Shown: in pieces, positions 29,548 through 41,022 of the stretch
How the letters are laid out: each line of letters starts with the position of its first letter
How positions within the stretch are numbered: position 1 is the stretch's first letter
Sequence record: OL539459.1
Length of the DNA: 51,759 bases
Source: Escherichia phage vB_EcoD_Fulano1
Reading direction: 5' to 3' (one strand)
Notes under the pieces: generated by a model
What the model was told of the DNA's origin: nothing
What the model saw: the letters and a program-made list of their open reading frames with translations, nothing else
Database searches by the model: none
Translations under genes and position numbers: made by a program

Positions 29548-31593
29548 ATGATTCCAAACATTGAAAAGCAAATATCAGCACTTGGTGAAGCGGTAATTAA
29601 ATCCATTCAGGAGCGATTCACTGTTGGAGAGATTGTGCCTTACCCTTACCAGTGCGTTGCATACGCTGAGATCGCAAAGCGTATGAAAAATTATGAGCAT
29701 CCATTCTTTGTTAAAGCGTCGGTATCGGCTGGCAAAACATTGATGTTTGCAATGGTTGCTCACCAGTGCCGTAAAATGGGCTTGAAAATGATGGTCCTTG
29801 CTCGCCAGGCTGAGATTGTGGATCAGGATTCTGAAGAGATAACAAATCTTGGCGTGCCGAACTCTATCTATTGTGCAGGACTGAAGACAAAAAGCGCATA
29901 CTTTCCGATCGTTGTTGGTTCTGAGGGAACTGTAGTTAATGGACTGTTTAAAGCGCTTGGCGACTATGTTCCGCACGTTATCGGGATTGACGAGTGTCAC
30001 CAGGTGGATTGGGAAGACCTTGCCGACGCAATAGAGAAAGACGAATCATTTTTACAAATGACGACGAAGAAAGGCGAAAAAGTACCAAATCCAGATTATG
30101 ACATAACAAAGGGAAGCAGGAACAGAAATACAGAGTTCCTGATTGGTGAGGATGGCTTGCCAATGGAGGGAACAGGCCGCACACAATACACTGTCATTAT
30201 CATGGAAATGATGCGACGTTGCAGGAAAGCATATGGCCATGAACTGCGCATATTTGGCATGACTGGATCGGAGTTTCGCGGTGTAGTCCCAATACTGGTA
30301 GAAGATAAAAAGCAGAAAGGATTTTGGCGTGAACAGGTTACTAATATTGACACCAACTACCTGATCAAGTTCGGTTCTGTTGTTCCGACTAATTTTGGCG
30401 ACGTTGGCGATCTCGGGTATGACCTTTCAGAGTTTGAGGCATCAAGCGAGGATGGCGTTGCAGACTTTGACGCTAAAACGCTTCGTAGGATGGAACAAAA
30501 AATTCATGAAGAAGCGACCATGACAAAGCGCATCATGGCGAAAGTGCACGAGATCTGTAAAAACCGTAACGGTGTACTTGTGACATGTGCAGGCGAAAGG
30601 CACTGTAAAGAGGCAGCGGCAGCATTGCCACCTGGAACGACTTACAGGATCATTACTGGTAAGACTGGAGATAACCAGCGAAAGGAGTGGTTGAAAGAAG
30701 CATACGAGGGGAAGGTTAAATACATCTTCCAGGTGCAGGCGCTAACTACTGGCGTTAACGTGCCGTTTTGGGATACGTCTGTTATTCTGCGTAAGATTGG
30801 ATCTCTTACGTTGCTGATTCAGCTTTTAGGGCGCGGAATGCGACTACTTAAGAAGTGGCATAAGGAGCAAGGATTCCAGAAAGATGATCATCTCGTCATG
30901 GATTTTTCAGGAACGATGGACGAGCTAGGGGAGCTTTATTTTGATCCGATACTGGAACAGGCGCAGCATCAGAAGCGATTCAGAAATGGTAAAGATCCGA
31001 AGCCTTGTCCTGTTTGCGGAACTCTTAACAGCTATTATGCTCGTCGTTGTATGCACGTAGACGAAAACGGCAACAGATGCGAGTGGTTCTTTAAATTCAG
31101 GACATGTGATGATCAGATTGACCCGCGCACTAAAAAGATTATTCATCGCGGTTGCGGAACGAAGAATGATATTGCGGCCAGGGTATGCAGACATTGCGAC
31201 ATGTCATTGATTGACCCCAACGAGAAGTTAAGCGGAAAGCACTACACAAAAAACGACTGGTTCCAAGTGCAATCTTTCGCGGTTAACATGACGAAAAACC
31301 AGAAAGGGATAATATTTAATTATGAGCTTTCCGATGGCATAGATACTTTCAAGGCGAGAGAGATATTTTTCCCTGAATCTGAAAGCCAAATTTGTCGCGC
31401 AAAATGGCGAAGCGTTGCTCTTAAGCACATACCAGATCGCCGTGTCGCTGGCATGGTCGCGAGCTATCGTAATGCACGAAAAATAATGCAGTATGTGAAT
31501 CACATTATGCCACCATCGCGCGTTACTCACCGCAAGACTAGCAAGGGCGAAGATAATTTGTACAAGAAGGAATTTAATTATGGCAATGACTGA
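29548..31593 (+). CDS. SF2 DNA helicase (DEAH-like)
   Basis: Walker A SVSAGKT, motif II GIDECHQV, C-terminal Cys clusters; start ATG 29548 (RBS AAAGG) chosen, ATG 29524 possible. Confidence 0.7.
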   Translation: MIPNIEKQISALGEAVIKSIQERFTVGEIVPYPYQCVAYAEIAKRMKNYEHPFFVKASVSAGKTLMFAMVAHQCRKMGLKMMVLARQAEIVDQDSEEITNLGVPNSIYCAGLKTKSAYFPIVVGSEGTVVNGLFKALGDYVPHVIGIDECHQVDWEDLADAIEKDESFLQMTTKKGEKVPNPDYDITKGSRNRNTEFLIGEDGLPMEGTGRTQYTVIIMEMMRRCRKAYGHELRIFGMTGSEFRGVVPILVEDKKQKGFWREQVTNIDTNYLIKFGSVVPTNFGDVGDLGYDLSEFEASSEDGVADFDAKTLRRMEQKIHEEATMTKRIMAKVHEICKNRNGVLVTCAGERHCKEAAAALPPGTTYRIITGKTGDNQRKEWLKEAYEGKVKYIFQVQALTTGVNVPFWDTSVILRKIGSLTLLIQLLGRGMRLLKKWHKEQGFQKDDHLVMDFSGTMDELGELYFDPILEQAQHQKRFRNGKDPKPCPVCGTLNSYYARRCMHVDENGNRCEWFFKFRTCDDQIDPRTKKIIHRGCGTKNDIAARVCRHCDMSLIDPNEKLSGKHYTKNDWFQVQSFAVNMTKNQKGIIFNYELSDGIDTFKAREIFFPESESQICRAKWRSVALKHIPDRRVAGMVASYRNARKIMQYVNHIMPPSRVTHRKTSKGEDNLYKKEFNYGND

Positions 31594-31999
31594 TAAAGGC
31601 GATTATCTGGAGTTTTACGAAAGAGATCCGACAGATACACTAAAAGAAGAATCGCACCAGATAGGCGCGTTTCAATGGGTAACTTATGCTCATCCTGAAT
31701 TACTGGCATGGCATACGAAAAACGAGGGCGACAAGGGGATCGCCACCGCAATGATGGATCAGCAAGCTGGGCTTGTTAAGGGCGTAAGTGATTTTATCAT
31801 CCTGATTGGATTAAAAGGTCGTTACCCGTTCGCGGCAATTGAGATGAAGCGCGTCAATAAGTCCGGCAAGGGTAAGGCTTCACCAGTCAGCAAGGACCAA
31901 AAAGCCTTCTTGCGTCGTGTGCGTGAGCTTGGCGGATTCGCTGCCGTAACATACGGATATAAGCAATTCATGATCGCGGTAGAATACATGATGAAATAG
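31580..31999 (+). CDS. VRR-NUC domain nuclease
   Basis: 139 aa; PD-(D/E)xK-like core GVSDFIILIG ... AIEMK. Confidence 0.55.
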   Translation: MAMTDKGDYLEFYERDPTDTLKEESHQIGAFQWVTYAHPELLAWHTKNEGDKGIATAMMDQQAGLVKGVSDFIILIGLKGRYPFAAIEMKRVNKSGKGKASPVSKDQKAFLRRVRELGGFAAVTYGYKQFMIAVEYMMK

Positions 32000-32073: not shown

Positions 32074-32775
32074 ATGAGCAAAGAAACTGAAGTGACATTT
32101 GAACAAATAGAACGCGAAACATTCATTGGCAATGCTCTTGCTACTGGTGGTCATTACCAGGCTGTTAAACCAAATCAATATTTCAAAGTGACTGGCAACC
32201 GCTATAACGGCAGCAATACGCCGGACATTGTGCGCGATTTGTGGTCTACTCCGTATGAGCTTGTCGCATGGATGGAAAGCGAATACGGTGATTATGACAT
32301 CGACGCGGCGGCGAGCAAAGAAAATGCCGTATGTGAAAAATTCTACAGCAAGGAAACAAATTGCTTAAAGCGTTGGTGGGGTAGTAATAAGCATATCTGG
32401 CTTAATCCACCGTACAGCAATATTACGCCTTTTGTTAAGAAGGCGATTGAGCAAATGGAACACAACAACCAGATCGACATACTGTTACCTTGCGACACAT
32501 CAACAGGATGGTTTTATGAAGCGCAACAGCGCGCAGCGGAAATCATCTGGATCACTGGAGAAGTTTACCAGGAGGACGGAACAGAATATTCCCGCACAGG
32601 ACGCCTTGCGTTTACCTCGGCTCTTACAGGTAAACCAGTGCAGGGCAACAACAAAGGAAGCGTTATTTTCATCATGCGCGAACTTAAAGAAGGTGAGCAG
32701 CAGAAAACGCGATACGTTAAAATCAGCGACATTTGCCCTTCGGTGGCAGACCGTCGCGCACGGAAACGGAGCTAA
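32074..32775 (+). CDS. dam: DNA N6-adenine methyltransferase (phage Dam-like)
   Basis: 233 aa; catalytic motif WLNPPYSN (NPPY). Confidence 0.75.
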   Translation: MSKETEVTFEQIERETFIGNALATGGHYQAVKPNQYFKVTGNRYNGSNTPDIVRDLWSTPYELVAWMESEYGDYDIDAAASKENAVCEKFYSKETNCLKRWWGSNKHIWLNPPYSNITPFVKKAIEQMEHNNQIDILLPCDTSTGWFYEAQQRAAEIIWITGEVYQEDGTEYSRTGRLAFTSALTGKPVQGNNKGSVIFIMRELKEGEQQKTRYVKISDICPSVADRRARKRS

Positions 32776-32779
32776 AACC

Positions 32780-33037
32780 ATGCAGAAAGAAAGAAGAGTT
32801 TTACTTAATGAAGATGGCGAATTTCTTTTGTATCGCGCTATGGTATGCGATGCAATTGATAAAAACCCTAACGTGAAAAAGATGATTGATTGCGATCCGT
32901 GGGAATTTTCAAGCGCATTAGATATGAGCTTTGAGGAGACAAAAAAACTCCCGCTTGAAAAATGGCACGAACAAATCAGAAATGACATGCAAGAATTTGT
33001 CGATTCTTGGAATTTTCAGAACGGAATGATCCACTAA
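32780..33037 (+). CDS. hypothetical protein
   Basis: ORF track 32432..33037 trimmed to ATG 32780 to remove overlap with dam. Confidence 0.4.
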   Translation: MQKERRVLLNEDGEFLLYRAMVCDAIDKNPNVKKMIDCDPWEFSSALDMSFEETKKLPLEKWHEQIRNDMQEFVDSWNFQNGMIH

Positions 33038-33056
33038 TAGCACTTTTTGTTAAAAC
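33037..33056 (+). promoter_or_regulatory. recurrent element ATAGCACTTTTTGTTAAAAC
   Basis: directly after stop TAA 33035-33037; hairpin 33057-33075 then CATAAT 33075-33080. Confidence 0.45.
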
Positions 33057-33112
33057 GCCCGGCCTTGTGTCGGGCATAATTATTTCATCAAAACGAACAA
33101 GAGGAAAACAAA

Positions 33113-33292
33113 ATGGTTGTTTACGATCCACGCGCTTTTAAAATTGCTCAAGAAGTTTCACGCGAATCTGTTGCTGGCGGTTCGGTTAACGGCTATCAGT
33201 TTGATTGGTCGGCAGCAATGACCTTGCTTAAGGTTGCATATGGTCACGCGCCAATTGAAACAGCGGAGGAATATTATAAGCATGAAGGTTGA
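33113..33292 (+). CDS. hypothetical small protein
   Basis: 59 aa ORF not in track; RBS AAGAGGA; downstream of recurrent element plus hairpin. Confidence 0.3.
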   Translation: MVVYDPRAFKIAQEVSRESVAGGSVNGYQFDWSAAMTLLKVAYGHAPIETAEEYYKHEG

Positions 33293-33524
33293 ACAAGGTA
33301 GGCAGGCTGTATGGGATCACGCAAAGGAATGCGGGATCGCAGAAGACATATCCAGGATAGCGGAATATTTTGATATTGCTGACATAAGCATTATCAGCGG
33401 CGACAAAATGACATTTCTCAATGAACGCCCGCGCAAGATGCATCGCGTCCCAGCAATACCAACAAAGATTGATTTCAAAGAGGCTATGGCGAAAATTCGC
33501 GAGCCGCGAAAATACTACAAATGA
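33282..33524 (+). CDS. hypothetical protein
   Basis: ORF track 33234..33524 trimmed to ATG 33282 behind GGAGG. Confidence 0.35.
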   Translation: MKVEQGRQAVWDHAKECGIAEDISRIAEYFDIADISIISGDKMTFLNERPRKMHRVPAIPTKIDFKEAMAKIREPRKYYK

Positions 33525-33622
33525 GGATTATTATCATGTGGCGTTTGTTACTTTTGCCCTTACCTGTTATGATGGCGATCTCTATTGTATATGTTGTCAT
33601 AATGAGATAAGGAGAATTTTTG

Positions 33623-34753
33623 ATGAAGCAAATCAAAATCACAGATGAACAATTTATCAATGAGCGCAAGCAGGGAAAGACATATAAGCAGATCGCTAAT
33701 GAATATGGCATGAACGTTCGCAGCATTGAGCGCCGCGCGGCACGATTAGCAAAGCAAGGTAAAGTTACAACCATCGGATCACCTGGTTTTGGTGTTACTG
33801 GAGAATCAAAGCTAATTGATAAAGATGGCAATGTGGTTATGACATGGATTAAGACAAGTAAGGACCGCGAACAGTTAGAAGCATTAATGCAGGCCGCTAT
33901 GGATGCATTTAGCGAAGAAGTTCCTCGACTTGATCCACAGCCAGAATCACAAAAGGATTATAGCGAGACGTTATCACTGTATCCGATCTTTGACATGCAC
34001 TTGGGCGCAATGGCGCATAAGCATGAATGCGGCGAGAATTGGGATACAGCAACAGCAGAGCGCGTAATGAATAATTTCATTGATTATTCCATCCAGTGCG
34101 CACCTGATAGTGAGAATGCTGTTTTGCTGATTGGCGGTGATATGCTTCACAGTGACGGACTGGAAGCGGTAACACCTGCAAGCGGTCACGTATTGGATCA
34201 AGATAGTCGATACGCAAAGCTTGTTTATGTTGCCATCCGGTCAGTGCGTCGAGCAATTACAAAGCTGTTATCAAAACACAAAAACGTCGAGATTCAGATC
34301 ATTGAAGGCAACCACGACCAAAGCGGCATGATCTGGTTGCGCGCAGCAATGGCGGCAGCATATGAGAATGAGCCACGAGTGCATGTTGATGTGTCTCCGC
34401 GAGTAGTTCATCACACACAATATGGCAAAACGTTCCTGGCATACCATCACGGGCATACTATCCGCAAACCTGAAACATTGCTAATGATGTGCGCGGCAGA
34501 CTGGCGCGAAGACTTCGGCAATTCAAAAATGATGTATGCTCACGTAGGGCACTGGCATCATCAAACAGTAACTGAAACAAGCCTGGGCATTGTTGAAGTG
34601 CATAGCACTATGGCGGCAAAAGATGCATATGCTGCGCGCGGTGGATGGCGTTCTCGTCGCCGTGCGGCTGTTATTGTTTATGATAAAGAATACGGAGAAG
34701 TAGGGCGATTTATGCATTATCCAGAAATGGCCGATCGAACTTTTAATTATTAA
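33623..34753 (+). CDS. HTH domain + calcineurin-like metallophosphoesterase
   Basis: N-terminal HTH-like KTYKQIANEYGMNVRSIERRAARL; phosphoesterase motifs DMH, GGDMLHSD, GNHD, GHWHH; ATG 33623 behind AAGGAG. Confidence 0.6.
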   Translation: MKQIKITDEQFINERKQGKTYKQIANEYGMNVRSIERRAARLAKQGKVTTIGSPGFGVTGESKLIDKDGNVVMTWIKTSKDREQLEALMQAAMDAFSEEVPRLDPQPESQKDYSETLSLYPIFDMHLGAMAHKHECGENWDTATAERVMNNFIDYSIQCAPDSENAVLLIGGDMLHSDGLEAVTPASGHVLDQDSRYAKLVYVAIRSVRRAITKLLSKHKNVEIQIIEGNHDQSGMIWLRAAMAAAYENEPRVHVDVSPRVVHHTQYGKTFLAYHHGHTIRKPETLLMMCAADWREDFGNSKMMYAHVGHWHHQTVTETSLGIVEVHSTMAAKDAYAARGGWRSRRRAAVIVYDKEYGEVGRFMHYPEMADRTFNY

Positions 34754-34781
34754 AATATCAATATAAATCATCAATTTAATT

Positions 34782-34812
34782 GGGCGTGGCATTTTGCTTC
34801 GCCCTTTTTTTA
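34782..34812 (+). terminator. intrinsic terminator before lysis cassette
   Basis: stem GGGCG/CGCCC then T8. Confidence 0.55.
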
Positions 34813-34884
34813 TTCCTTTTTGTGCGTTCAATGGTTAGGATACAATCAATTAATTGTTGACTTTTATCTACAGGAGATCTAATC

Positions 34885-35100
34885 ATGAAAGATTTTTTAA
34901 ACGCTGCAACTTCCGGCACTGGCGGCGCGTCAATCACTGGCGCGGTAACTGGTCAAACAACTATTGCAATAGCCAGCTTCGTTTTGATGGCTGCATTTGG
35001 TATGTGGGGAGCTTATCTTCGCTGGCGTGATAGTAAGGCGCTACGTGACGCGCTTGAATGCGGTGATATTAAGAAAGCTATTGAGATCAGAGGTAAATAA
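34885..35100 (+). CDS. holin
   Basis: 71 aa, hydrophobic helices, charged C-terminus, directly upstream of endolysin with ATGA overlap. Confidence 0.55.
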
Positions 35101-35588
35101 TGAGTATAAAACAAAGAGTGACCGCTGCGGCTTTTGGCGTTGCTCTTGCCCTTACTTCTCCGCTACTGGAGGAAATAGAAGGAGTAAAACATAAGCCGTA
35201 CAAAGATATTGCTGGGATATGGACGGTTTGCGCCGGAATAACTGGACCTGACGTAATACCAAGTAAAACGTACACACAGAGAGAGTGCGATGCGCTACTG
35301 GCAAAGCATATCAAGATCGCAAAGGATGAAGTTGATAAACGTGTGAAGGTTGAGATTCCTGATACAATGCGCGCGGCAATGTATTCATTCACATACAATG
35401 CTGGCACTGGTGCTTTCAGAAATTCAACCATGCTTAAGCTGATTAATAAAGGACGTTACATGGAAGCGTGCGATCAGTTATGGCGATGGACAAAATACAC
35501 CAATCCAAAAACAGGAAAGAAAGAAACGTCTAAAGGACTGCGCAACCGCCGCGCTGTGGAATTTAAATATTGCATTAAGGATCTGTAA
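35100..35588 (+). CDS. endolysin (lysozyme, probable SAR type)
   Basis: catalytic triad E-x8-D-x5-T ([16 protein letters not shown]); N-terminal hydrophobic Gly/Ala-rich segment resembles signal-anchor-release domain. Confidence 0.8.
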
Positions 35589-35590
35589 TT

Positions 35591-35989
35591 ATGAGAAAGC
35601 TATCAGCAATCGCGATCGCTGTTATTTTGTCTGGATGTTCAAGCGTTATGCCACTGACCGGATTAATCGGTAGTAAGCCGGAAATCACAGCACAGGCAGG
35701 AGCGGAGAACGTAAAGCAGACCGTTGGCGTTACCGCAAAGCAGGACACCAGCACGAAACAGGAAACTACAATAAAGGAATCTGCGGTTGATAAGGTGGAC
35801 ACTTCCAGCAAGAAGGATTTCACTACGTCAACCATTCAGGCTAACACCATCAAGGCCGATAAAATCCAGGTCGTGCAGGGGGAGCAAAGGAAGTGGTACG
35901 ATCCTATAATCTATTGCGCTGCAATTTTCAGTGGTCTTTTGACTATGCTTTACTTTTCCTACCGCAAAGATAACAAAAAGGAGGCTTAA
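35591..35989 (+). CDS. unimolecular spanin (u-spanin)
   Basis: lipoprotein signal MRKLSAIAIAVILSGC plus C-terminal transmembrane helix; architecture of the T1 gp11 u-spanin. Confidence 0.7.
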   Translation: MRKLSAIAIAVILSGCSSVMPLTGLIGSKPEITAQAGAENVKQTVGVTAKQDTSTKQETTIKESAVDKVDTSSKKDFTTSTIQANTIKADKIQVVQGEQRKWYDPIIYCAAIFSGLLTMLYFSYRKDNKKEA

Positions 35990-36004
35990 CGCCTCCTTTG
36001 TTAT
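35980..36004. terminator. bidirectional terminator after lysis cassette
   Basis: stem GGAGGC/GCCTCC, T-rich on both sides. Confidence 0.55.
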
Positions 36005-36243
36005 TCGATACGCTTTACAGTAACCAACAAAACGCCGTCCTCATCACACAAATTATGCTCTGATATGTTAAACGCTCGCATGTCAGAATGAATGAGCGTT
36101 AACATTGCGTGCATGAAGTCGCCATGTGAGATTTGAGAAGTAGCGCAAAACTTAAGAATTTCATCTATCAGTTTACTTTCCATGATTTTCATGATAACCA
36201 AGTTTAGCCTCTGCTTGTTCTCTTGCCATAATTGCATCATCAA
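36001..36243 (-). CDS. hypothetical protein
   Basis: 80 aa ORF, overlaps 3' end of HNH gene. Confidence 0.3.
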   Translation of the reverse strand: MMMQLWQENKQRLNLVIMKIMESKLIDEILKFCATSQISHGDFMHAMLTLIHSDMRAFNISEHNLCDEDGVLLVTVKRIE

Positions 36244-36646
36244 TGCTTGAAAATAATCCTAAATGAATACTCTTACCTTTATCATATATGGTTGCATGCC
36301 ATTTTTTTTCTTTCTTCCTCCAGCACACTCCAACCCTACCAGATTTATTTCTTTTTAGTAGAGATACGTTTTTGCTGTTCTCTAATCTTGATGCAAGCCT
36401 TAAATTTTCAATCCTGTTATCCAACCTATTGTGCCATATATGATCTATCTCCATTCCTTCTGGTATTTTTCCATTGTGCATTTCCCATATTATCCTATGC
36501 GCCAAAAGCAATACACCATTATACCTTATTCTTACATAGCCATTTTTATCTACACATCCAGCAACGCTTCCTGGCTTTGCTTTTCCCCTTCTGTTTCTCC
36601 ATCTCAATATTCCATTGTCATATATAAATATTTTATTCCAATCCAT
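36173..36646 (-). CDS. HNH homing endonuclease (HNH + AP2-like domain), copy 1
   Basis: motifs HRIIWEMHNG, IDHIWHNRLDNRIENLRL and AP2-like C-terminal segment. Confidence 0.75.
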   Translation of the reverse strand: MDWNKIFIYDNGILRWRNRRGKAKPGSVAGCVDKNGYVRIRYNGVLLLAHRIIWEMHNGKIPEGMEIDHIWHNRLDNRIENLRLASRLENSKNVSLLKRNKSGRVGVCWRKKEKKWHATIYDKGKSIHLGLFSSIDDAIMAREQAEAKLGYHENHGK

Positions 36647-37025
36647 ATCTTTTCCTTAGAGCTTCTATTTGTTGTCTATTAGCATTTGACGTAAACAATT
36701 CTTCATCGCTCATTTCTCCGATCCTTAAAACATCCCTTACCCATTCGTTTTGCATACCTTCCAGGCTGTAAAGTTCAAACGAGAATGGGCGATTTGCTGA
36801 TCCTTTCTTACACCAGAACTTTCCACCAACTCCATCAAGATAACCAGCGGTCATCATTCTTGAGCAAAATTCTTTTGAAACGGCAGTTGCAAACATCCTC
36901 GGCGTAAATCCTGCGGCCCTTGCGAGCCGCTCACATTCTCTATGCTGAAATATAAATTTCGCTATATGTTGACGTGTAAAATAGTCAAAGGATTCGCACC
37001 ACCTATATAGGTCAAGAATAAACAA
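36633..37025 (-). CDS. hypothetical protein
   Basis: 130 aa ORF wedged between two HNH genes. Confidence 0.4.
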   Translation of the reverse strand: MFILDLYRWCESFDYFTRQHIAKFIFQHRECERLARAAGFTPRMFATAVSKEFCSRMMTAGYLDGVGGKFWCKKGSANRPFSFELYSLEGMQNEWVRDVLRIGEMSDEELFTSNANRQQIEALRKRYGLE

Positions 37026-37028
37026 AAC

Positions 37029-37502
37029 TTATCCCCCGTGATTTTTGTGATAGCCAAGTTTTTCTTCTGCTAGTTTTCTTGCGTCTATAGCGTCACTTAT
37101 ATCTAAAAATCTCCCAAGATGTTTTATTCCATTATCTGTCTTTATCTGCGCCTTCCACTTGCCAGAGTAATTATCAAAGTAAACGCCAGTTACACCAGAT
37201 CTATTATTTTTTGATCTTGATTTGTTTTTACTATTCTCCTTGCATGTTACAAGCCTCAAGTTTTCTATCCTGTTATCGGTTCTTATGTGATTTATGTGAT
37301 CTATCTGCATTCCATCAGGAATATCTCCGTTAAACATTTCCCAAACTATCCTATGCACTCTCCTGAATCTATATCCTACATTAACCTGCAAGTATCCATC
37401 AGGTAGCATCCTACCAGCAGGCTCTCCAGCCTTGACGCGACCATAACTACGCTTCCAACGAAGTATTCCATTGTCATAATCAAAAACATCATGCCAATTC
37501 AT
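37029..37502 (-). CDS. HNH homing endonuclease, copy 2
   Basis: paralog of copy 1: NGILRW, HRIVWEMFNG, IDHINH...DNRIENLRL. Confidence 0.75.
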   Translation of the reverse strand: MNWHDVFDYDNGILRWKRSYGRVKAGEPAGRMLPDGYLQVNVGYRFRRVHRIVWEMFNGDIPDGMQIDHINHIRTDNRIENLRLVTCKENSKNKSRSKNNRSGVTGVYFDNYSGKWKAQIKTDNGIKHLGRFLDISDAIDARKLAEEKLGYHKNHGG

Positions 37503-37506
37503 AAAG

Positions 37507-39090
37507 TTACCCCAGCAATGTTGGATTTACGAAAACAACGCCATTAATCACACAAATATAATTTCTTTCTTCAAGCATCGGCAGCAGTTGCGTTTCCATA
37601 CGCTTCATTACGCCAGCCTGACCAACAAACGGCTTAACTTTTCGTGCAGCCTCATATATGGCGCGCACATTCAAGATCCCCTTGTTAGCCTTACCGTGTC
37701 GAGTGATAATCTCGATTAGTTTACCCATTTCAGCATCATCACCAGCATAGCCAGAAGCGTTTGCGGCGCTAATGTATGTTTTGCTCAACTCGCTAAACAT
37801 CAGTAGTGCTTCCTGAACGGTTTCAACCTCAATCTCTTTCGACTTTTGAGGGTATCCGCCAGGATTAAACCAATTGCGGATAGTGTGCAAAACCGAAGCA
37901 ATTCTGATCACCTGCTTATCCATTTTGCCAAGCGCGCCGCGCAGCATTGTATGAGAATACTTTCCGCCATCGGCAAGGTGCGGTTCCATCTCCTGACGAG
38001 CCATGTTAAGCACTCGCATTGCTGATTTGCTGATCTTAAGCTGGATGTTTGATTCGCTCATTATGTTATGGATCAGCTTAAAATATTGGCTTTTCAGTTC
38101 TCCATCAACAGGCTCATAAGTCGAATCACCGTTATCATCAACAAACTTTCGACGACCTAAAAATGATTCCTCACGCACAAGCAAATAACGCTCACTTACA
38201 CCGATACCGCGTGATCCTGCGTCCATGATGGCATTGATTGTTTCATCCTGGGCAATTACCGCCATGCAGCCAAGAGCTTTAAAACTCATATTGTTGTCAG
38301 CGTTTGCACGAGCTATAGAAACATGACCATGATCCCATGCTTTTAGCACAAGTTCGCTGTTTGTTTTGCGTTCGCTATTGGCATATGTCAGGCCTAAAAG
38401 GCTGTTAATACTCGTTGCCTCGTCTGAAATTACAGCAAAGTTACCCTGGCGATTGTTGATTCTTGCAAGTCCTTCAGGCGTGGTGTCTGAAACAGGGAAA
38501 ACAATGTCACACATCTTTTCCAGCTTTTCTTCAAGATCTTCTTTCTCCTGGTATAGCGATTCCATATCAGCGCCAGATCGCTCGCTTTTCATCTCTTTTG
38601 CAAGACCTGCCAACTTTGCCTGAATCTTTTTTCGTTCCTTCTTTCGCTGATCATTAATTCTTTCTACCTCAGCAACCATAGGAGCAAGTGCCAGGCTGTT
38701 AACGGCAGATTTACCAGTTGAAGGAGGCTGACTTGTAACAACGTAAAGAGCAGTTGGTTGATCCGTTCCGTGATACTCAACCGTGAAGCGTCCAAGCATT
38801 GCAGCAGACACGCAGCCGATAAAATGCATATATGCCGATGATTCAGGGAACTGAACTGATCGAGCAATGTTGCGCGCCAACTTACCAACAACATCAACAT
38901 CATTGCCAAGAGAAATTATAGGGTAGCGATCGTTTCCGTTATTAACATCATTAACCTCACCCCAAAAGCTGGACGATTGACGGTATCCGTTTGCCTGAAT
39001 GGACACGCGCACCGGAGATAATCCTTGTGCATCAGCTAATTCGATAATTTGTTTTGGTGTTAGTTTATTGGTTTCAAACGAAAAATTCAT
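37507..39090 (-). CDS. P-loop NTPase (putative replication/helicase-like ATPase)
   Basis: 527 aa; Walker A PPSTGKS, Walker B-like VISDEATS; function not resolved. Confidence 0.4.
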   Translation of the reverse strand: MNFSFETNKLTPKQIIELADAQGLSPVRVSIQANGYRQSSSFWGEVNDVNNGNDRYPIISLGNDVDVVGKLARNIARSVQFPESSAYMHFIGCVSAAMLGRFTVEYHGTDQPTALYVVTSQPPSTGKSAVNSLALAPMVAEVERINDQRKKERKKIQAKLAGLAKEMKSERSGADMESLYQEKEDLEEKLEKMCDIVFPVSDTTPEGLARINNRQGNFAVISDEATSINSLLGLTYANSERKTNSELVLKAWDHGHVSIARANADNNMSFKALGCMAVIAQDETINAIMDAGSRGIGVSERYLLVREESFLGRRKFVDDNGDSTYEPVDGELKSQYFKLIHNIMSESNIQLKISKSAMRVLNMARQEMEPHLADGGKYSHTMLRGALGKMDKQVIRIASVLHTIRNWFNPGGYPQKSKEIEVETVQEALLMFSELSKTYISAANASGYAGDDAEMGKLIEIITRHGKANKGILNVRAIYEAARKVKPFVGQAGVMKRMETQLLPMLEERNYICVINGVVFVNPTLLG

Positions 39091-39143
39091 TGATGATAAC
39101 TCCTTTTTTGATGCGGCAATAATACCGCACCAATGCTACCCGC

Positions 39144-39162
39144 ATTTAACAAAAAATGCTAT
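39144..39162 (-). promoter_or_regulatory. recurrent element ATAGCATTTTTTGTTAAAT
   Basis: overlaps stop TAG of HNH copy 3; hairpin with TATTAT loop; then RBS AAAAGGAG and ATG 39090. Confidence 0.45.
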
Positions 39163-39659
39163 ACGCCATGATTCTTGTGAAATGAGAAATCTTTCTGAGC
39201 TGTTTTTCTGGCAGTTTCTGCTTCATGTATCGACTCATACCGCCCTAAACTTACGTTTTTACCATTAATTTGAATTTGTGCCCTCCACTTTCCAGTTTGT
39301 TTGCAGAATGTAACTCCAGTCACCCCGCTTGAATTATTTATCTGAACAGACTTGTTCATATTGTTTTCAAGCCTTGTTACCAGCCTTAGATTTTCAATCC
39401 TGTTGTCTGCGCGATTGTGGTTAATGTGATCAACCTCCATGTTTGGCGGAATGTCTCCATTGTGCATAATCCAAACAATTCTATGCGCCAGGTATTTCCT
39501 GCCAAAAATACCAATAGAAATATACCCATTACCTTTTTCGCAGCCAGCTATGAAACCTATTTTATTCTTCTTTCCTGTATTGACCCTCCATATCAAATAT
39601 CCATCTTTGTATTCAAACAGCCTCAAAAGTATTTCGCTTGAAATTTTGCAGTTGCACAT
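39159..39659 (-). CDS. HNH homing endonuclease, copy 3
   Basis: HRIVWIMHNG, VDHINHNRADNRIENLRL, AP2-like tail; RBS GGAGGG. Confidence 0.75.
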   Translation of the reverse strand: MCNCKISSEILLRLFEYKDGYLIWRVNTGKKNKIGFIAGCEKGNGYISIGIFGRKYLAHRIVWIMHNGDIPPNMEVDHINHNRADNRIENLRLVTRLENNMNKSVQINNSSGVTGVTFCKQTGKWRAQIQINGKNVSLGRYESIHEAETARKTAQKDFSFHKNHGV

Positions 39660-40006
39660 TCGAAACCCTCCTCGCAGCGATATAGAGTAAAGCGATCACC
39701 TTGTTCATCGTAAACATACCCAGCAACAGCGCCAAGCACTCTACCACTTTCCACTTGATACCTATTTCCTTGCTTGAAAGTTTTCTTAACGCTAAGAGAA
39801 TGGTCAACGTAAGTGCAAAGTATTGTTTTTGTCTTGATGTGACGATAGTCAGACTCAACAACGTTTTGCCACTTGCTACCCTTTGTAATGCTCTTTACCT
39901 GGAATTGTTCCAACTCGATCACATCATCGCTACCAGCAATTTTTTCGTATACAGCTTTATAACGACCGTCCATCAAAACGTTGGTTTTATTGCAGATAAC
40001 TTTCAT
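39623..40006 (-). CDS. hypothetical protein
   Basis: 127 aa, RBS AAAGGAG; promoter-like element upstream. Confidence 0.4.
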   Translation of the reverse strand: MKVICNKTNVLMDGRYKAVYEKIAGSDDVIELEQFQVKSITKGSKWQNVVESDYRHIKTKTILCTYVDHSLSVKKTFKQGNRYQVESGRVLGAVAGYVYDEQGDRFTLYRCEEGFECATAKFQAKYF

Positions 40007-40062
40007 CGTTTATTTCTCCTTTCGTTTCGGTGAAGTGATTATGCCAGGCTTTTACACCTGGC

Positions 40063-40081
40063 TTTTAACAAAAAGTGCTAT
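40063..40081 (-). promoter_or_regulatory. recurrent element ATAGCACTTTTTGTTAAAA
   Basis: overlaps stop TAG of methyltransferase gene; hairpin GCCAGG..CCTGGC then CATAAT then ATG 40006. Confidence 0.45.
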
Positions 40082-40788
40082 TTTGCGTTAGCTTCAAAGA
40101 CTGCGCGGGCAAAACCGCGCGGGGTTAGGGAGCGGATCATCTTTGTGCGAGATGATTTTCCGCCAGTTTTGGCCCAGCCTGGATTATCTTTGTCATTCTC
40201 TTTCGGCAGGATTAAAGCGCGCGGAGGAATAACAAATCCGTTTCCAGTCCAAAGGCATGTTTTCTTAAAGTACCGATCCCGCGCCGGAATAATATCAGGG
40301 AAGTCGGGATGCTTATCATCTTCCGGCAGATAGCCAGCATAATCGCACGGATGGAACGTATAATCAGGCTTACGCCATAACGTTGACAGCTTGCCTACAG
40401 GATTTTCGATCATGTAAGGAACGCCGAAATAATCAGCGATATGCGCCGCGATTCTGCAAGTGTCGGCGGCCTCATCCTGGAAAGAGGGATTCTCAAGGCG
40501 TTTTTTGGACCAATGGCGAGATCCGCTATTTGCAAGGTCAGTGCACGGCGGAAATGCCATAATGAAATCAGGCTTACCCCAATTTTCAAGTTTTGCGGTA
40601 TATTTGAATAGCTCATCAATCCACACATTAACGTAAAAAATATTATCATGGATTATGCGCACTGATTGGTAATCTCCGTGATCGGCATCATCGTAATTAA
40701 AGCAAATGCATTTATATCCAGCATCAGCCCAATCTTTAACGGCTTTACCAGATCCATCAAACAAAGAGAATATTAAACCTTTATACAT
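40078..40788 (-). CDS. DNA cytosine-5 methyltransferase (Dcm-like)
   Basis: motif I LFDGSG, motif IV FPPCTD, motif VI ENPVG. Confidence 0.6.
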   Translation of the reverse strand: MYKGLIFSLFDGSGKAVKDWADAGYKCICFNYDDADHGDYQSVRIIHDNIFYVNVWIDELFKYTAKLENWGKPDFIMAFPPCTDLANSGSRHWSKKRLENPSFQDEAADTCRIAAHIADYFGVPYMIENPVGKLSTLWRKPDYTFHPCDYAGYLPEDDKHPDFPDIIPARDRYFKKTCLWTGNGFVIPPRALILPKENDKDNPGWAKTGGKSSRTKMIRSLTPRGFARAVFEANAK

Positions 40789-40797
40789 TTCATCACC

Positions 40798-41022
40798 TCA
40801 AAACGGAAAGCATCTAGGACAGTTCGGATCAAAATTGCAACCACAATCATTAACAATCATAGTTGGATCTGCAAATGCAGCGCCGCATTCATGGTCCATA
40901 TCCATTTCACCCAACGCATCATCAAGCGTCCTGATTTTATATGCCACTTCAAGCGCTGCCTCTTTATTTAATCCGGCATCTTCAGCCATTTGCAGGCGCT
41001 CAAAAAATCCGTCCTGACTCAT
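40798..41022 (-). CDS. hypothetical Cys-rich protein
   Basis: 74 aa, C-terminal CGCNFDPNCPRC. Confidence 0.35.
   Translation of the reverse strand: MSQDGFFERLQMAEDAGLNKEAALEVAYKIRTLDDALGEMDMDHECGAAFADPTMIVNDCGCNFDPNCPRCFPF

What the first reader, a model, noticed from the sequence alone, without database searches (positions are those of the whole stretch)
32074..40788. Phage carries both an adenine (Dam-like) and a cytosine-5 methyltransferase
32074..32775 has NPPY. 40078..40788 (opposite strand, early block) has C5-MTase motifs FxGxG, PC and ENV. Both are orphan methyltransferases with no adjacent endonuclease, consistent with anti-restriction self-methylation. The C5 enzyme is unusually small (236 aa), so its target recognition domain and specificity are open.
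Basis: partly seen in the sequence, partly recalled or inferred. Interest (0 to 1): 0.4.

Follow-up and report, generated by a model that had tools for sequence, protein, structure and literature searches.

The report
Known phage Dam and minimal Dcm methyltransferases
This T1-like coliphage does encode an adenine and a very small cytosine-5 DNA methyltransferase, but both are already annotated in its close relatives, and the small one has been shown by experiment to be an active enzyme that sets off the retron Ec86 defence.

Summary
Both genes are real and intact at the stated coordinates. The window is a Hanrivervirus (Drexlerviridae), about 96% identical over this region to phage KarlJaspers, whose record already names them Dam-like and Dcm-like methyltransferases.

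**Adenine enzyme (32074-32775, +).** It is a T1-type Dam: PF05869 E=2e-60, above the TIGR01712 cut-off, and 67% identical to T1 Dam.

**Cytosine enzyme (40078-40788, -).**
- It has no Pfam or NCBIfam hit, but it belongs to a large phage family (phrog_757, found in 1,500 phage records).
- It has invariant FDGSG, PPC and ENPV motifs.
- It models confidently (pLDDT 89.7), and the nearest solved folds are DNMT3A/B methyltransferase domains.
- It matches the 711-bp dcm of phage K42 in length and in residues C82, E128, K175 and K176. Wang et al. showed that enzyme makes 5mC on retron Ec86 msDNA and triggers the retron.

**New supporting evidence here.**
- The genome has lost many palindromes: 20 of 64 six-base palindromes are absent, and CCSGG occurs 2 times against 53 expected. 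It keeps GATC (279) and CCWGG (118).
- A nanopore-only assembly of a close relative is miscalled at every CCWGG site, the known signature of 5mC.

**Still open.** The genome-wide specificity, the recognition mechanism, and how much of the methylation comes from the host rather than the phage.

Verdict: ordinary and already known.

The parts
32074..32775 (+). dam: T1-type phage N6-adenine DNA methyltransferase, 233 aa
   Evidence: PF05869 E=2.3e-60. TIGR01712 equivalog at 184.9 bits against a cut-off of 97. phrog_111. 67% identical to T1 Dam ST20. Same helicase / VRR-NUC / dam gene order as T1.
32404..32415 (+). NPPY catalytic motif IV of Dam (residues 111-114)
   Evidence: Position computed. 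Conserved in the alignment with T1 Dam.
40078..40788 (-). Minimal C5-cytosine DNA methyltransferase ('Dcm' of Hanrivervirus phages), 236 aa, 711 bp
   Evidence: phrog_757 E=5.4e-86. No Pfam or NCBIfam hit for this protein, but 15 of 27 family members touch PF00145. AlphaFold2 pLDDT 89.7. Top Foldseek hits are DNMT3A/B methyltransferase domains, E about 3e-7. The KarlJaspers orthologue is annotated 'Dcm-like C5 cytosine methyltransferase'. Same length and same C82/E128/K175/K176 as K42 Dcm.
40543..40545 (-). Codon of the catalytic Cys82 (PPC, motif IV)
   Evidence: Read from the sequence. Invariant in 27 homologues. Aligned to the PC motif of DNMT3B.
40796..40799 (-). GAGG Shine-Dalgarno of the C5 methyltransferase gene
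   Evidence: Sequence. [quoted passage not shown] This link is an inference.
31580..31999 (+). VRR-NUC nuclease-fold gene upstream of dam (context, not a restriction partner)
   Evidence: PF08774 E=1.1e-9. It overlaps the end of the helicase gene by 14 nt. T1 has a gene of similar size at the same position (ST21).
39623..40006 (-). 127-aa gene of unknown function immediately downstream of the C5 methyltransferase gene
   Evidence: phrog_2684, unknown function, E=3.4e-40, and no Pfam hit.
40798..41022 (-). 74-aa gene of unknown function immediately upstream; its stop codon abuts the Shine-Dalgarno of the C5 methyltransferase gene
   Evidence: phrog_9323, E=6.1e-39. Sequence.
39159..39659 (-). 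HNH_3 + AP2 homing endonuclease, two genes downstream of the C5 methyltransferase gene (context)
   Evidence: PF13392 E=1.6e-22 and PF00847 E=1e-6. No HNH or homing-endonuclease gene is annotated in this region of KarlJaspers.

Best explanation
The phage encodes two stand-alone DNA methyltransferases that modify its own replicating DNA.

1. **Dam.** A T1-type Dam uses S-adenosylmethionine and its NPPY site to make N6-methyladenine, most likely at GATC.
2. **The 236-aa enzyme.** This is a stripped-down C5-cytosine methyltransferase.
   - It has motif I (FDGSG) for the cofactor, the PPC loop with Cys82 as nucleophile, and ENPV with E128.
   - Only about 75 residues lie between motif VIII (WRKP) and a fused motif IX/X (RSLTPRGFARAV).
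   - It makes 5-methylcytosine, most likely at CCWGG.

**Shown.** The gene identities, motifs, fold and family membership are shown here. The 5mC activity and the dependence on the catalytic residues are shown in the literature for the K42 enzyme.

**Inferred.**
- The modification protects GATC and CCWGG sites from restriction enzymes. That would let the phage keep these sites while it loses most other palindromes.
- The cost is that the same cytosine methylation of retron Ec86 (Eco1) msDNA activates that abortive-infection system.
For: **Identity of the phage and the two genes**
- The region is 96.3% identical to KarlJaspers over the 82% that aligns. That record annotates both genes as methyltransferases.
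- Dam passes the Pfam and NCBIfam curated cut-offs and is 67% identical to T1 Dam.
- C5 enzyme: invariant G12-S13-G14, P81-C82, E128-N129-P130, W138-R139, K175 and R219-to-G225, in true numbering, across 27 homologues down to 56% identity.
- Its model has pLDDT 89.7 and pTM 0.89. All of the top 50 PDB fold matches are C5 methyltransferases.

**Published experiments**
- Escapers of retron Ec86 map to the 711-bp dcm of a KarlJaspers-type phage of about 51.7 kb.
- Expressing that Dcm raises 5mC on msDNA by LC-MS. The C82A/E128A/K175A/K176A mutant does not.
- Changing CCTGG in the msDNA abolishes defence.
- The residue numbers are identical in the window protein.

**Genome signature**
- GATC occurs 279 times (observed/expected 1.43) and CCWGG 118 times (1.76).
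- CCSGG occurs 2 times against 53 expected and GGWCC 11 against 67. Twenty of 64 six-base palindromes are absent.
- In 80 IMG/VR loci carrying the small methyltransferase, CCWGG is never depleted (observed/expected minimum 0.62, median 1.60). In 24 of them CCSGG is below 0.2.
- Every locus with a Dam hit keeps GATC, at 0.97 or above among the 80 Dcm-like loci and 0.67 at the lowest among the Dam-anchored loci. Seven loci of about 50% GC with no Dam hit have GATC at 0.04-0.18.

**Indirect methylome evidence**
- In the nanopore-only assembly of Hanrivervirus 2019SD1 (native DNA, Albacore and Canu; PMC8590004), 0 of 34 aligned CCAGG/CCTGG sites are conserved, against 72% for all 5-mers.
- In other close relatives, 78-90% of these sites are conserved.
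- Such consensus errors are characteristic of Dcm-methylated sites (PMC6591954).
Against: - This protein has no Pfam or NCBIfam hit. Sequence hits to solved C5 methyltransferases are only marginal (E 0.15-1.1), and fold TM-scores are only about 0.5.
- There is no detectable similarity to E. coli Dcm outside the PC motif. CCWGG specificity therefore cannot be inferred by homology.
- In the preprint, CCWGG was assumed from host Dcm and tested only through msDNA mutants. No genome-wide motif was mapped in what I could read.
- The experiments used MG1655, which I recall is dcm+. Its own Dcm neither gave high msDNA 5mC nor triggered the retron. That difference is left unexplained.
- The site-retention and nanopore-error evidence cannot separate the phage enzyme from host Dcm or Dam.
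- T1 lacks the C5 gene yet is not depleted in CCWGG (observed/expected 1.17).
- BASEL found no simple link between these methyltransferase genes and restriction resistance.
Confidence: 0.8

Rival explanations
1. The small enzyme is an active C5 DNA methyltransferase, but its true target is not the host-Dcm site (inner C of CCWGG). It could be the outer C, a shorter or degenerate motif that contains CCWGG, or hairpin or single-stranded DNA. The CCWGG modification seen in virions would then come mainly from host Dcm.
For: - There is no TRD similarity to E. coli Dcm.
- MG1655 cells, which I recall are dcm+, with an empty vector gave only low msDNA 5mC and did not self-activate Ec86. Phage Dcm did both.
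- Mutating either C of CCTGG abolishes defence, and the figure legend marks both cytosines.
- Specificity was assumed, not mapped.
Against: - The difference from host Dcm could be quantitative: arabinose-induced phage enzyme against a chromosomal host enzyme acting on a multicopy, protein-bound msDNA.
- Across 80 loci the retained motif is specifically CCWGG, while its sibling CCSGG is lost in 24 of them.
- The nanopore error signal in 2019SD1 is confined to CCAGG/CCTGG. No other 5-mer approaches 0% conservation.
Confidence: 0.2
2. The methyltransferases do not serve mainly as anti-restriction devices. Dam might time replication or packaging, or avoid MutH nicking. The C5 enzyme might counter another defence or alter host gene expression.
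For: [quoted passage not shown]
- The genome already relies heavily on site avoidance.
- T1 does without the C5 gene.
Against: - The two motifs kept at high density amid widespread loss of palindromes are the ones these enzymes are expected to protect.
- Loci with no Dam hit within 10 kb can show near-total GATC loss.
- That pattern is what protection by methylation predicts.
- The restriction systems BASEL tested need not recognise GATC or CCWGG.
Confidence: 0.15
3. The 236-aa ORF is not a functional DNA methyltransferase. It would be a degenerate remnant, or an enzyme for RNA or another substrate, that merely keeps short methyltransferase-like motifs.
For: - It has no Pfam or NCBIfam hit.
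- It is about half the length of E. coli Dcm.
- The ENV motif is altered to ENPV.
Against: - The catalytic motifs are strictly conserved across thousands of homologues.
- The C5-methyltransferase fold is predicted with confidence.
- A same-length orthologue with the same catalytic residues makes 5mC in DNA in vivo, and this depends on those residues.
Confidence: 0.03

Closest known systems
Dcm of Escherichia phage K42 (KarlJaspers strain Hzau42), the trigger of retron Ec86/Eco1 (Wang et al., bioRxiv 10.1101/2023.08.16.553469; cited elsewhere as Cell Rep 2024, 43:114857)
   Same: - The gene is 711 bp in both.
- C82, E128, K175 and K176 sit at the same positions.
- The host genome is of the same type: about 51.7 kb and about 95-96% identical to KarlJaspers Bas06.
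- G at gene position 451, and C on the + strand at -9, match the bases named for the escaper mutations.
   Different: The K42 sequence is not in the collections I could search, so identity cannot be measured. No pair of direct repeats 2,262 bp apart flanks the gene, so the reported deletion cannot be mapped here.
Dcm-like C5 cytosine methyltransferase bas06_0055 and Dam-like methyltransferase bas06_0042 of Escherichia phage KarlJaspers (MZ501090, BASEL collection)
   Same: The genes are syntenic, with the same strands and sizes. The region is 96.3% identical over the aligned 82%.
   Different: The 18% of the query that does not align to KarlJaspers matches three extra HNH-type endonuclease ORFs that the window carries between the lysis genes and the C5 methyltransferase gene.
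Phage T1 Dam (ST20, YP_003925; PF05869 family)
   Same: 67% identity over 218 residues, the NPPY and D-x-D-A-A-A motifs, and a position downstream of the helicase and VRR-NUC genes.
   Different: T1 has no homologue of the 236-aa C5 enzyme anywhere in its genome. GATC specificity of T1 Dam is recalled from the older literature, not checked here.
DNMT3A/DNMT3B catalytic domains (e.g. PDB 6u91, 6kdt, 8tdr)
   Same: They are the best fold and sequence matches among solved structures. Motif I and the PC motif align. They are also C5 methyltransferases with a very small target-recognition region.
   Different: Identity is only 12-18% and TM-score about 0.5. DNMT3 domains are about 50 residues longer, recognise CpG and work as oligomers with DNMT3L. 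The oligomeric state of the phage enzyme is unknown.
E. coli K-12 Dcm (b1961, 472 aa)
   Same: Same chemistry and the same proposed target, CCWGG.
   Different: A profile comparison aligns only 23 columns around the PC motif, at probability 1.2%. The phage enzyme is half the size, and no vsr-like partner gene is annotated in the KarlJaspers region.

Membership tests
Phage T1-type Dam (Pfam PF05869 / NCBIfam TIGR01712) | Profile match above the curated cut-offs | tested here: met
   PF05869 at 203.5 bits against 28.1. TIGR01712 equivalog at 184.9 bits against 97.05.
Phage T1-type Dam (Pfam PF05869 / NCBIfam TIGR01712) | (D/N)PPY catalytic motif and the upstream D-x-D-A-A-A cofactor motif | tested here: met
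   NPPY at residues 111-114 and DIDAAAS at 75-81. Both are conserved with T1 Dam.
Phage T1-type Dam (Pfam PF05869 / NCBIfam TIGR01712) | m6A formation at GATC | not testable with these tools
   Indirect only. GATC is not avoided (279 sites, observed/expected 1.43). Every locus with a Dam hit keeps GATC (0.97 or above among the Dcm-like loci, 0.67 at the lowest elsewhere), while seven loci with no Dam hit have 0.04-0.18.
C5-cytosine DNA methyltransferases (Pfam PF00145) | Match to the PF00145 profile at the gathering threshold | tested here: not met
   The window protein has no hit, even at E up to 1. 15 of 27 family members hit PF00145 at E up to 1, best 1.3e-6. Three homologues carry a precomputed PF00145 hit.
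C5-cytosine DNA methyltransferases (Pfam PF00145) | Motif I FxGxG, motif IV PC with the catalytic Cys, and motif VI ENV | tested here: met
   FDGSG at 10-14, PPC with C82, and ENPV with E128 (a variant of ENV). All are invariant in 27 homologues. The PC motif aligns to DNMT3B's PC.
C5-cytosine DNA methyltransferases (Pfam PF00145) | C5-methyltransferase fold | tested here: met
   Model pLDDT 89.7. The top 50 Foldseek PDB hits are all C5 methyltransferases, best E=2.7e-7, TM about 0.5.
C5-cytosine DNA methyltransferases (Pfam PF00145) | Separate target-recognition domain between motifs VIII and IX, and distinct motifs IX and X | tested here: inconclusive
   Only about 75 residues lie between WRKP (138-141) and RSLTPRG (219-225). 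The protein ends 11 residues after RSLTPRG, so IX and X appear fused. This motif assignment comes from reading the alignment, not from a structural superposition.
C5-cytosine DNA methyltransferases (Pfam PF00145) | 5mC formation in DNA | not testable with these tools
   Published for the K42 enzyme of the same length and catalytic residues: LC-MS, with a dead catalytic mutant.
E. coli Dcm / M.EcoRII-type CCWGG methyltransferases | Sequence homology that includes the target-recognition domain | tested here: not met
   hhalign of the family profile against K-12 Dcm aligns 23 columns around the PC motif, at probability 1.2%.
E. coli Dcm / M.EcoRII-type CCWGG methyltransferases | Methylation of the inner C of CCWGG | tested here: inconclusive
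   Consistent: CCWGG is retained while CCSGG is lost. The nanopore miscalls in 2019SD1 are specific to CCWGG. The msDNA CCTGG mutants support it. None of these separates the phage enzyme from host Dcm.
phrog_757 / phage K42 Dcm (retron Ec86 trigger) | Family profile match, same length and same catalytic residues, in a Hanrivervirus genome | tested here: met
   phrog_757 E=5.4e-86. 711 bp with C82, E128, K175 and K176. 96% identical to KarlJaspers.
phrog_757 / phage K42 Dcm (retron Ec86 trigger) | Activation of retron Ec86 by msDNA methylation | not testable with these tools
   Literature only.
Type II restriction-modification system | A cognate restriction endonuclease gene next to the methyltransferase | tested here: not met
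   Neighbours of dam: a VRR-NUC gene coupled to the helicase, small hypothetical genes, and a 377-aa ORF whose T1 and RefSeq counterparts are annotated 'DNA repair exonuclease'. Neighbours of the C5 gene: small proteins of unknown function, plus an HNH_3+AP2 homing endonuclease.

The most novel reading that the evidence does not exclude
The 236-aa enzyme represents a minimal, phage-specific architecture of DNA C5 methyltransferase. Its sequence readout would come from about 75 residues carrying family-specific invariant positions (H160-P161-x-F163, D171-x-Y173-x-K175, W180, G209-G210). Motifs IX and X are fused, and it might read the palindrome as a dimer in the manner of DNMT3. Its true genome-wide target might also differ from that of host Dcm, which would explain why a host I recall to be dcm+ does not set off retron Ec86 while the phage enzyme does.
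Probability: 0.25. Interest if true: 0.45.

Novelty: already known. Interest (0 to 1): 0.15.

Why it matters
For the question as posed, it matters little. Paired Dam and C5 methyltransferase genes are a stated, common feature of Drexlerviridae, and 64 of 80 related loci carry both within 10 kb. The small enzyme also has a published function, as a 5mC writer and as the trigger of retron Ec86/Eco1.

What remains useful:
- The family is very widespread (1,500 of 50,697 phage records), yet Pfam and NCBIfam do not detect this member. It is therefore often left as 'hypothetical'.
- I found no genome-wide motif map or account of its recognition mechanism in the papers I could read. It is about the smallest active DNA C5 methyltransferase I know of.
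- The contrast between retained CCWGG and lost CCSGG is a simple sequence signature of which sites a phage protects by methylation and which it removes.

Tried and rejected
2. **The published Cell Reports version of the retron paper.** It is not held, so only the 2023 preprint was read. Later specificity data may exist.
3. **Homology to E. coli Dcm as a route to specificity.** The profile comparison found nothing beyond the PC motif.
4. **T1 as a natural 'no C5 gene' control.** T1 lacks the gene, but its CCWGG is not depleted (1.17). Absence of the gene therefore does not force avoidance.
5. **Locus L014.** Its CCWGG count of 0 against 27 expected first looked like a specificity swap. It is a sequencing artefact: every site is garbled with indels, and dam and dcm are frameshifted in a nanopore-only assembly.
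6. **Locus L026.** It has CCWGG 1 against 26 expected and no C5 gene within the locus, but the locus is cut at the contig end. It has no close relative in the phage collection, so it cannot serve as a control.
7. **Comparing T1-like loci with and without the C5 gene.** I dropped this because truncated loci make 'absent' unreliable.
8. **Mapping the K42 2,262-bp escaper deletion.** No direct repeats at that spacing flank the gene.
9. **Literature search for T1 Dam specificity.** It returned nothing usable, so that point rests on recall.
10. **Promoter and terminator scans.** Promoter-like sites were fewer than in shuffled sequence, and nothing there could be assigned to either gene.

Full report
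**What is in the sequence.** Both ORFs exist exactly as described.
- ORF 32074-32775 (+) encodes 233 aa, with DIDAAAS at residues 75-81 and NPPY at 111-114.
- ORF 40078-40788 (-) is 711 bp and encodes 236 aa. It has FDGSG at 10-14, PPC with Cys82 (codon 40543-40545), and IENPVG with Glu128.
- A GAGG ribosome-binding site lies at -11 to -8. It directly follows the stop codon of the 74-aa upstream gene, so the C5 gene is tightly packed into a minus-strand gene block.

**What the window is.**
- The 9-kb region is 96.3% identical, over the 82% that aligns, to Escherichia phage KarlJaspers (Bas06; Drexlerviridae, Tempevirinae, Hanrivervirus).
- It is similarly close to EC147, haarsle, pSf-1 and others.
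- In KarlJaspers the two genes are already annotated 'Dam-like N6-adenine methyltransferase' and 'Dcm-like C5 cytosine methyltransferase'.
- The unaligned 18% corresponds to extra HNH-type endonuclease ORFs.

**The adenine enzyme.**
- It matches PF05869 (Dam) at E=2.3e-60 and the NCBIfam equivalog TIGR01712, 'phage N-6-adenine-methyltransferase', at 184.9 bits against a cut-off of 97.
- It is 67% identical to T1 Dam.
- It sits in the same place as in T1, after the helicase and a small VRR-NUC gene.
- No related solved structure was found by sequence.
- GATC specificity of T1 Dam is from my recollection of the older literature (Schneider-Scherzer et al., 1990). I could not find it in the held library.

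**The cytosine enzyme.**
- Pfam and NCBIfam do not recognise this protein, so the assignment needed testing.
- It matches PHROG 757, 'DNA methyltransferase', at E=5.4e-86.
- It has more than 3,358 homologous clusters in the protein database. Most full-length ones are about 226-262 aa, and a few carry a precomputed PF00145 hit.
- It is found in 1,500 of 50,697 phage records, spanning genomes from about 40 to about 170 kb that infect Escherichia, Klebsiella, Salmonella, Vibrio and other hosts.
- In an alignment of 27 homologues down to 56% identity, these positions are invariant in true numbering: G12 S13 G14, P81 C82, E128 N129 P130, W138 R139, H160 P161, K175, G209 G210 and R219-G225.
- Fifteen of the 27 give PF00145 hits at E up to 1, best 1.3e-6.
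- Sequence and profile searches of the PDB give only marginal hits (E 0.15-1.1). All of them are to C5 methyltransferases (DNMT3B, M.HaeIII), and they align motif I and the PC motif.
- An AlphaFold2 model built on the alignment is confident (pLDDT 89.7, pTM 0.89). Its lower-confidence stretches include residues 81-90, just after the catalytic Cys82, and residues 191-210.
- All of the top 50 Foldseek hits in the PDB are C5 methyltransferases. Most are DNMT3A/B catalytic domains. The list also includes the prophage CP-933R methyltransferase 3g7u and plant MET1. The best E is 2.7e-7, with TM about 0.5.

**Why it is so small.** This part is my reading of the alignment.
- Only about 75 residues separate motif VIII (WRKP, 138-141) from RSLTPRGFARAV (219-230).
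- That last stretch looks like motifs IX and X run together, and the protein ends a few residues later.
- A profile comparison with E. coli K-12 Dcm (472 aa) aligns just 23 columns around the PC motif, at probability 1.2%.
- 'Dcm-like' is therefore a functional label and does not mean homology of the recognition domain.

**What is already known from experiment.**
- Wang et al. (bioRxiv 10.1101/2023.08.16.553469) selected mutants of phage K42 that escape retron Ec86. K42 is a KarlJaspers-type phage of about 51.7 kb, 95.4% identical to Bas06.
- Expressing Dcm was toxic only when Ec86 was present, and it raised 5mC on msDNA by LC-MS. A C82A/E128A/K175A/K176A mutant did neither. Changing the msDNA CCTGG to AATGG, ACTGG or CATGG abolished defence.
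- The window protein has C, E, K and K at exactly those positions. It has G at gene position 451, and at -9 it has a G in the Shine-Dalgarno sequence, which is C on the + strand.
- The window is 51,759 bp long. It may be K42 or a near relative, but I could not test this because the K42 sequence is not in the searchable collections.
- Later papers treat the result as established.
- The BASEL paper states that N6-adenine and C5-cytosine methyltransferases are 'abundantly encoded by Drexlerviridae' and may counter restriction. It found no simple correlation with restriction sensitivity (PMC8594841).

**New supporting evidence from sequence statistics.**
- The window avoids palindromes strongly. 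Twenty of 64 six-base palindromes are absent and ten more occur once. CCSGG occurs 2 times against 53 expected from composition, GGWCC 11 against 67, and CTAG 25 against 195.
- GATC (279, observed/expected 1.43) and CCWGG (118, 1.76) are retained. So are GCGC, CGCG and some others, so retention is not unique to the two candidate target sites.
- Against a Markov expectation, GATC and CCWGG are about 1.0.
- In 80 IMG/VR loci carrying the small methyltransferase, CCWGG is never depleted (minimum 0.62, median 1.60). In 24 of them CCSGG is almost eliminated, below 0.2.
- 64 of the 80 loci also have a PF05869-type Dam within 10 kb.
- This is what I would expect if CCNGG-cutting enzymes select against these phages while CCWGG is shielded by methylation. 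That reading is my inference.
- Every locus with a Dam hit keeps GATC: 0.97 or above among the 80 Dcm-like loci, and 0.67 at the lowest among the Dam-anchored loci. Seven loci of about 50% GC with no Dam hit within 10 kb have GATC at 0.04-0.18.
- T1 has Dam but no homologue of the C5 gene. Its CCWGG stands at 1.17, so lacking the gene does not by itself cause avoidance.

**An accidental methylome.**
- One Dam-anchored locus, L014, had no CCWGG at all.
- It is Shigella phage 2019SD1 (NC_049820/MT360681), a Hanrivervirus sequenced only from native DNA on ONT R9.4 with Albacore 2.3.1 and Canu (PMC8590004).
- Aligned to the window, all 41 CCWGG sites are altered to forms such as CCGGG, CCGTG, CC-GG or CACGG. 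Its dam and dcm reading frames are broken.
- Among all 5-mers, CCAGG/CCTGG is the sole extreme outlier. It is conserved at 0 of 34 sites, against 72% overall. GATC is conserved at 81%.
- In three other close relatives CCWGG is 78-90% conserved.
- Wick et al. showed that Albacore-era consensus errors concentrate at Dcm-methylated CCAGG/CCTGG (PMC6591954).
- I read this as indirect evidence that CCWGG in virion DNA of a close relative is modified at essentially every site. It cannot tell whether the phage or the host enzyme did it.

**Mechanism and its weak points.**
- The most likely picture is that both enzymes methylate replicating phage DNA, at GATC and CCWGG. The modification protects those sites from restriction.
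- The C5 enzyme is also a liability, because methylation of msDNA fires retron Ec86. The preprint notes that Dam methylases were previously identified as retron triggers in the same way.
- The unresolved points are these:
  1. No genome-wide specificity map was found in what I could read.
  2. MG1655, which I recall is dcm+, neither methylates msDNA well nor triggers Ec86, although it should target the same motif. This could be a matter of dosage, or a real difference in target.
  3. There is no demonstrated anti-restriction phenotype.

**Verdict.** The finding is ordinary and already in the literature and in GenBank annotations. Interest is low. The residual interest lies in the unmapped specificity and the recognition mechanism of this minimal C5 methyltransferase family.

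Noticed in passing
window 36173-36646, 37029-37502 and 39159-39659 (all - strand): Three paralogous ORFs of about 157-166 aa interrupt the block between the lysis genes and the C5 methyltransferase gene. Pfam confirms HNH_3 + AP2 for the third. The other two look alike by eye (NGILRW..., ENLRL motifs). KarlJaspers has no HNH gene annotated in this region, and no phage record covers more than 80% of 35900-40100, so this combination of insertions seems particular to this phage.
   Followed up: partly
whole window: Palindrome avoidance is very strong. Twenty of 64 six-base palindromes are absent (including GGATCC, CTGCAG, GATATC, CCCGGG and GTCGAC) and ten more occur once. CCSGG occurs 2 times against 53 expected and RCCGGY once against 30. 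GCGC (359, three times expectation), CGCG, GCSGC and CGSCG are strongly over-represented.
   Followed up: partly
L014 = Shigella phage 2019SD1, NC_049820 / MT360681 (record 22033-42729): This RefSeq genome is a nanopore-only assembly with systematic errors at every CCWGG site and many indels (346 gap columns in 16.8 kb). The errors frameshift its dam and dcm-like genes. Its published 'no cleavage site' statements and some gene calls are probably artefacts.
   Followed up: yes
IMG/VR loci L067, L069, L076, L084, L085, L087, L109: These contigs, about 24-45 kb and about 50% GC, carry the small C5 methyltransferase (58-62% identical) but have no Dam hit within 10 kb. They have almost no GATC: 3-10 sites where 47-81 are expected. 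This is a clear case of site avoidance in place of methylation.
   Followed up: partly
window 31580-31999 (+): A VRR-NUC (PD-(D/E)xK nuclease fold) gene overlaps the 3' end of the helicase gene by 14 nt and ends 75 bp before dam. It is probably a replication or recombination nuclease, not a restriction partner. Its role is untested.
   Followed up: no
IMG/VR locus L026 (IMGVR_UViG_3300048920_000084): A distant T1-like contig (Dam 63% identical) has both CCWGG (1 against 26 expected) and CCSGG (1 against 23) lost through ordinary substitutions, and no small C5 methyltransferase within the fetched 16.6 kb. It could be a natural 'no Dcm, full CCNGG avoidance' control, but the locus is truncated and has no close relative in the phage collection.
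   Followed up: partly
literature (bioRxiv 10.1101/2023.08.16.553469) in relation to window 40078-40788: The retron experiments were done in MG1655, which I recall is dcm+. Host Dcm neither gave high msDNA 5mC nor activated Ec86, while the phage enzyme, assumed to share the CCWGG target, did both. The preprint does not discuss this discrepancy.
   Followed up: no
window 37507-39090 (-): A 527-aa DUF3987 protein (E=1.8e-43) is annotated as 'putative helicase' in relatives. It lies between two of the HNH insertions.
   Followed up: no
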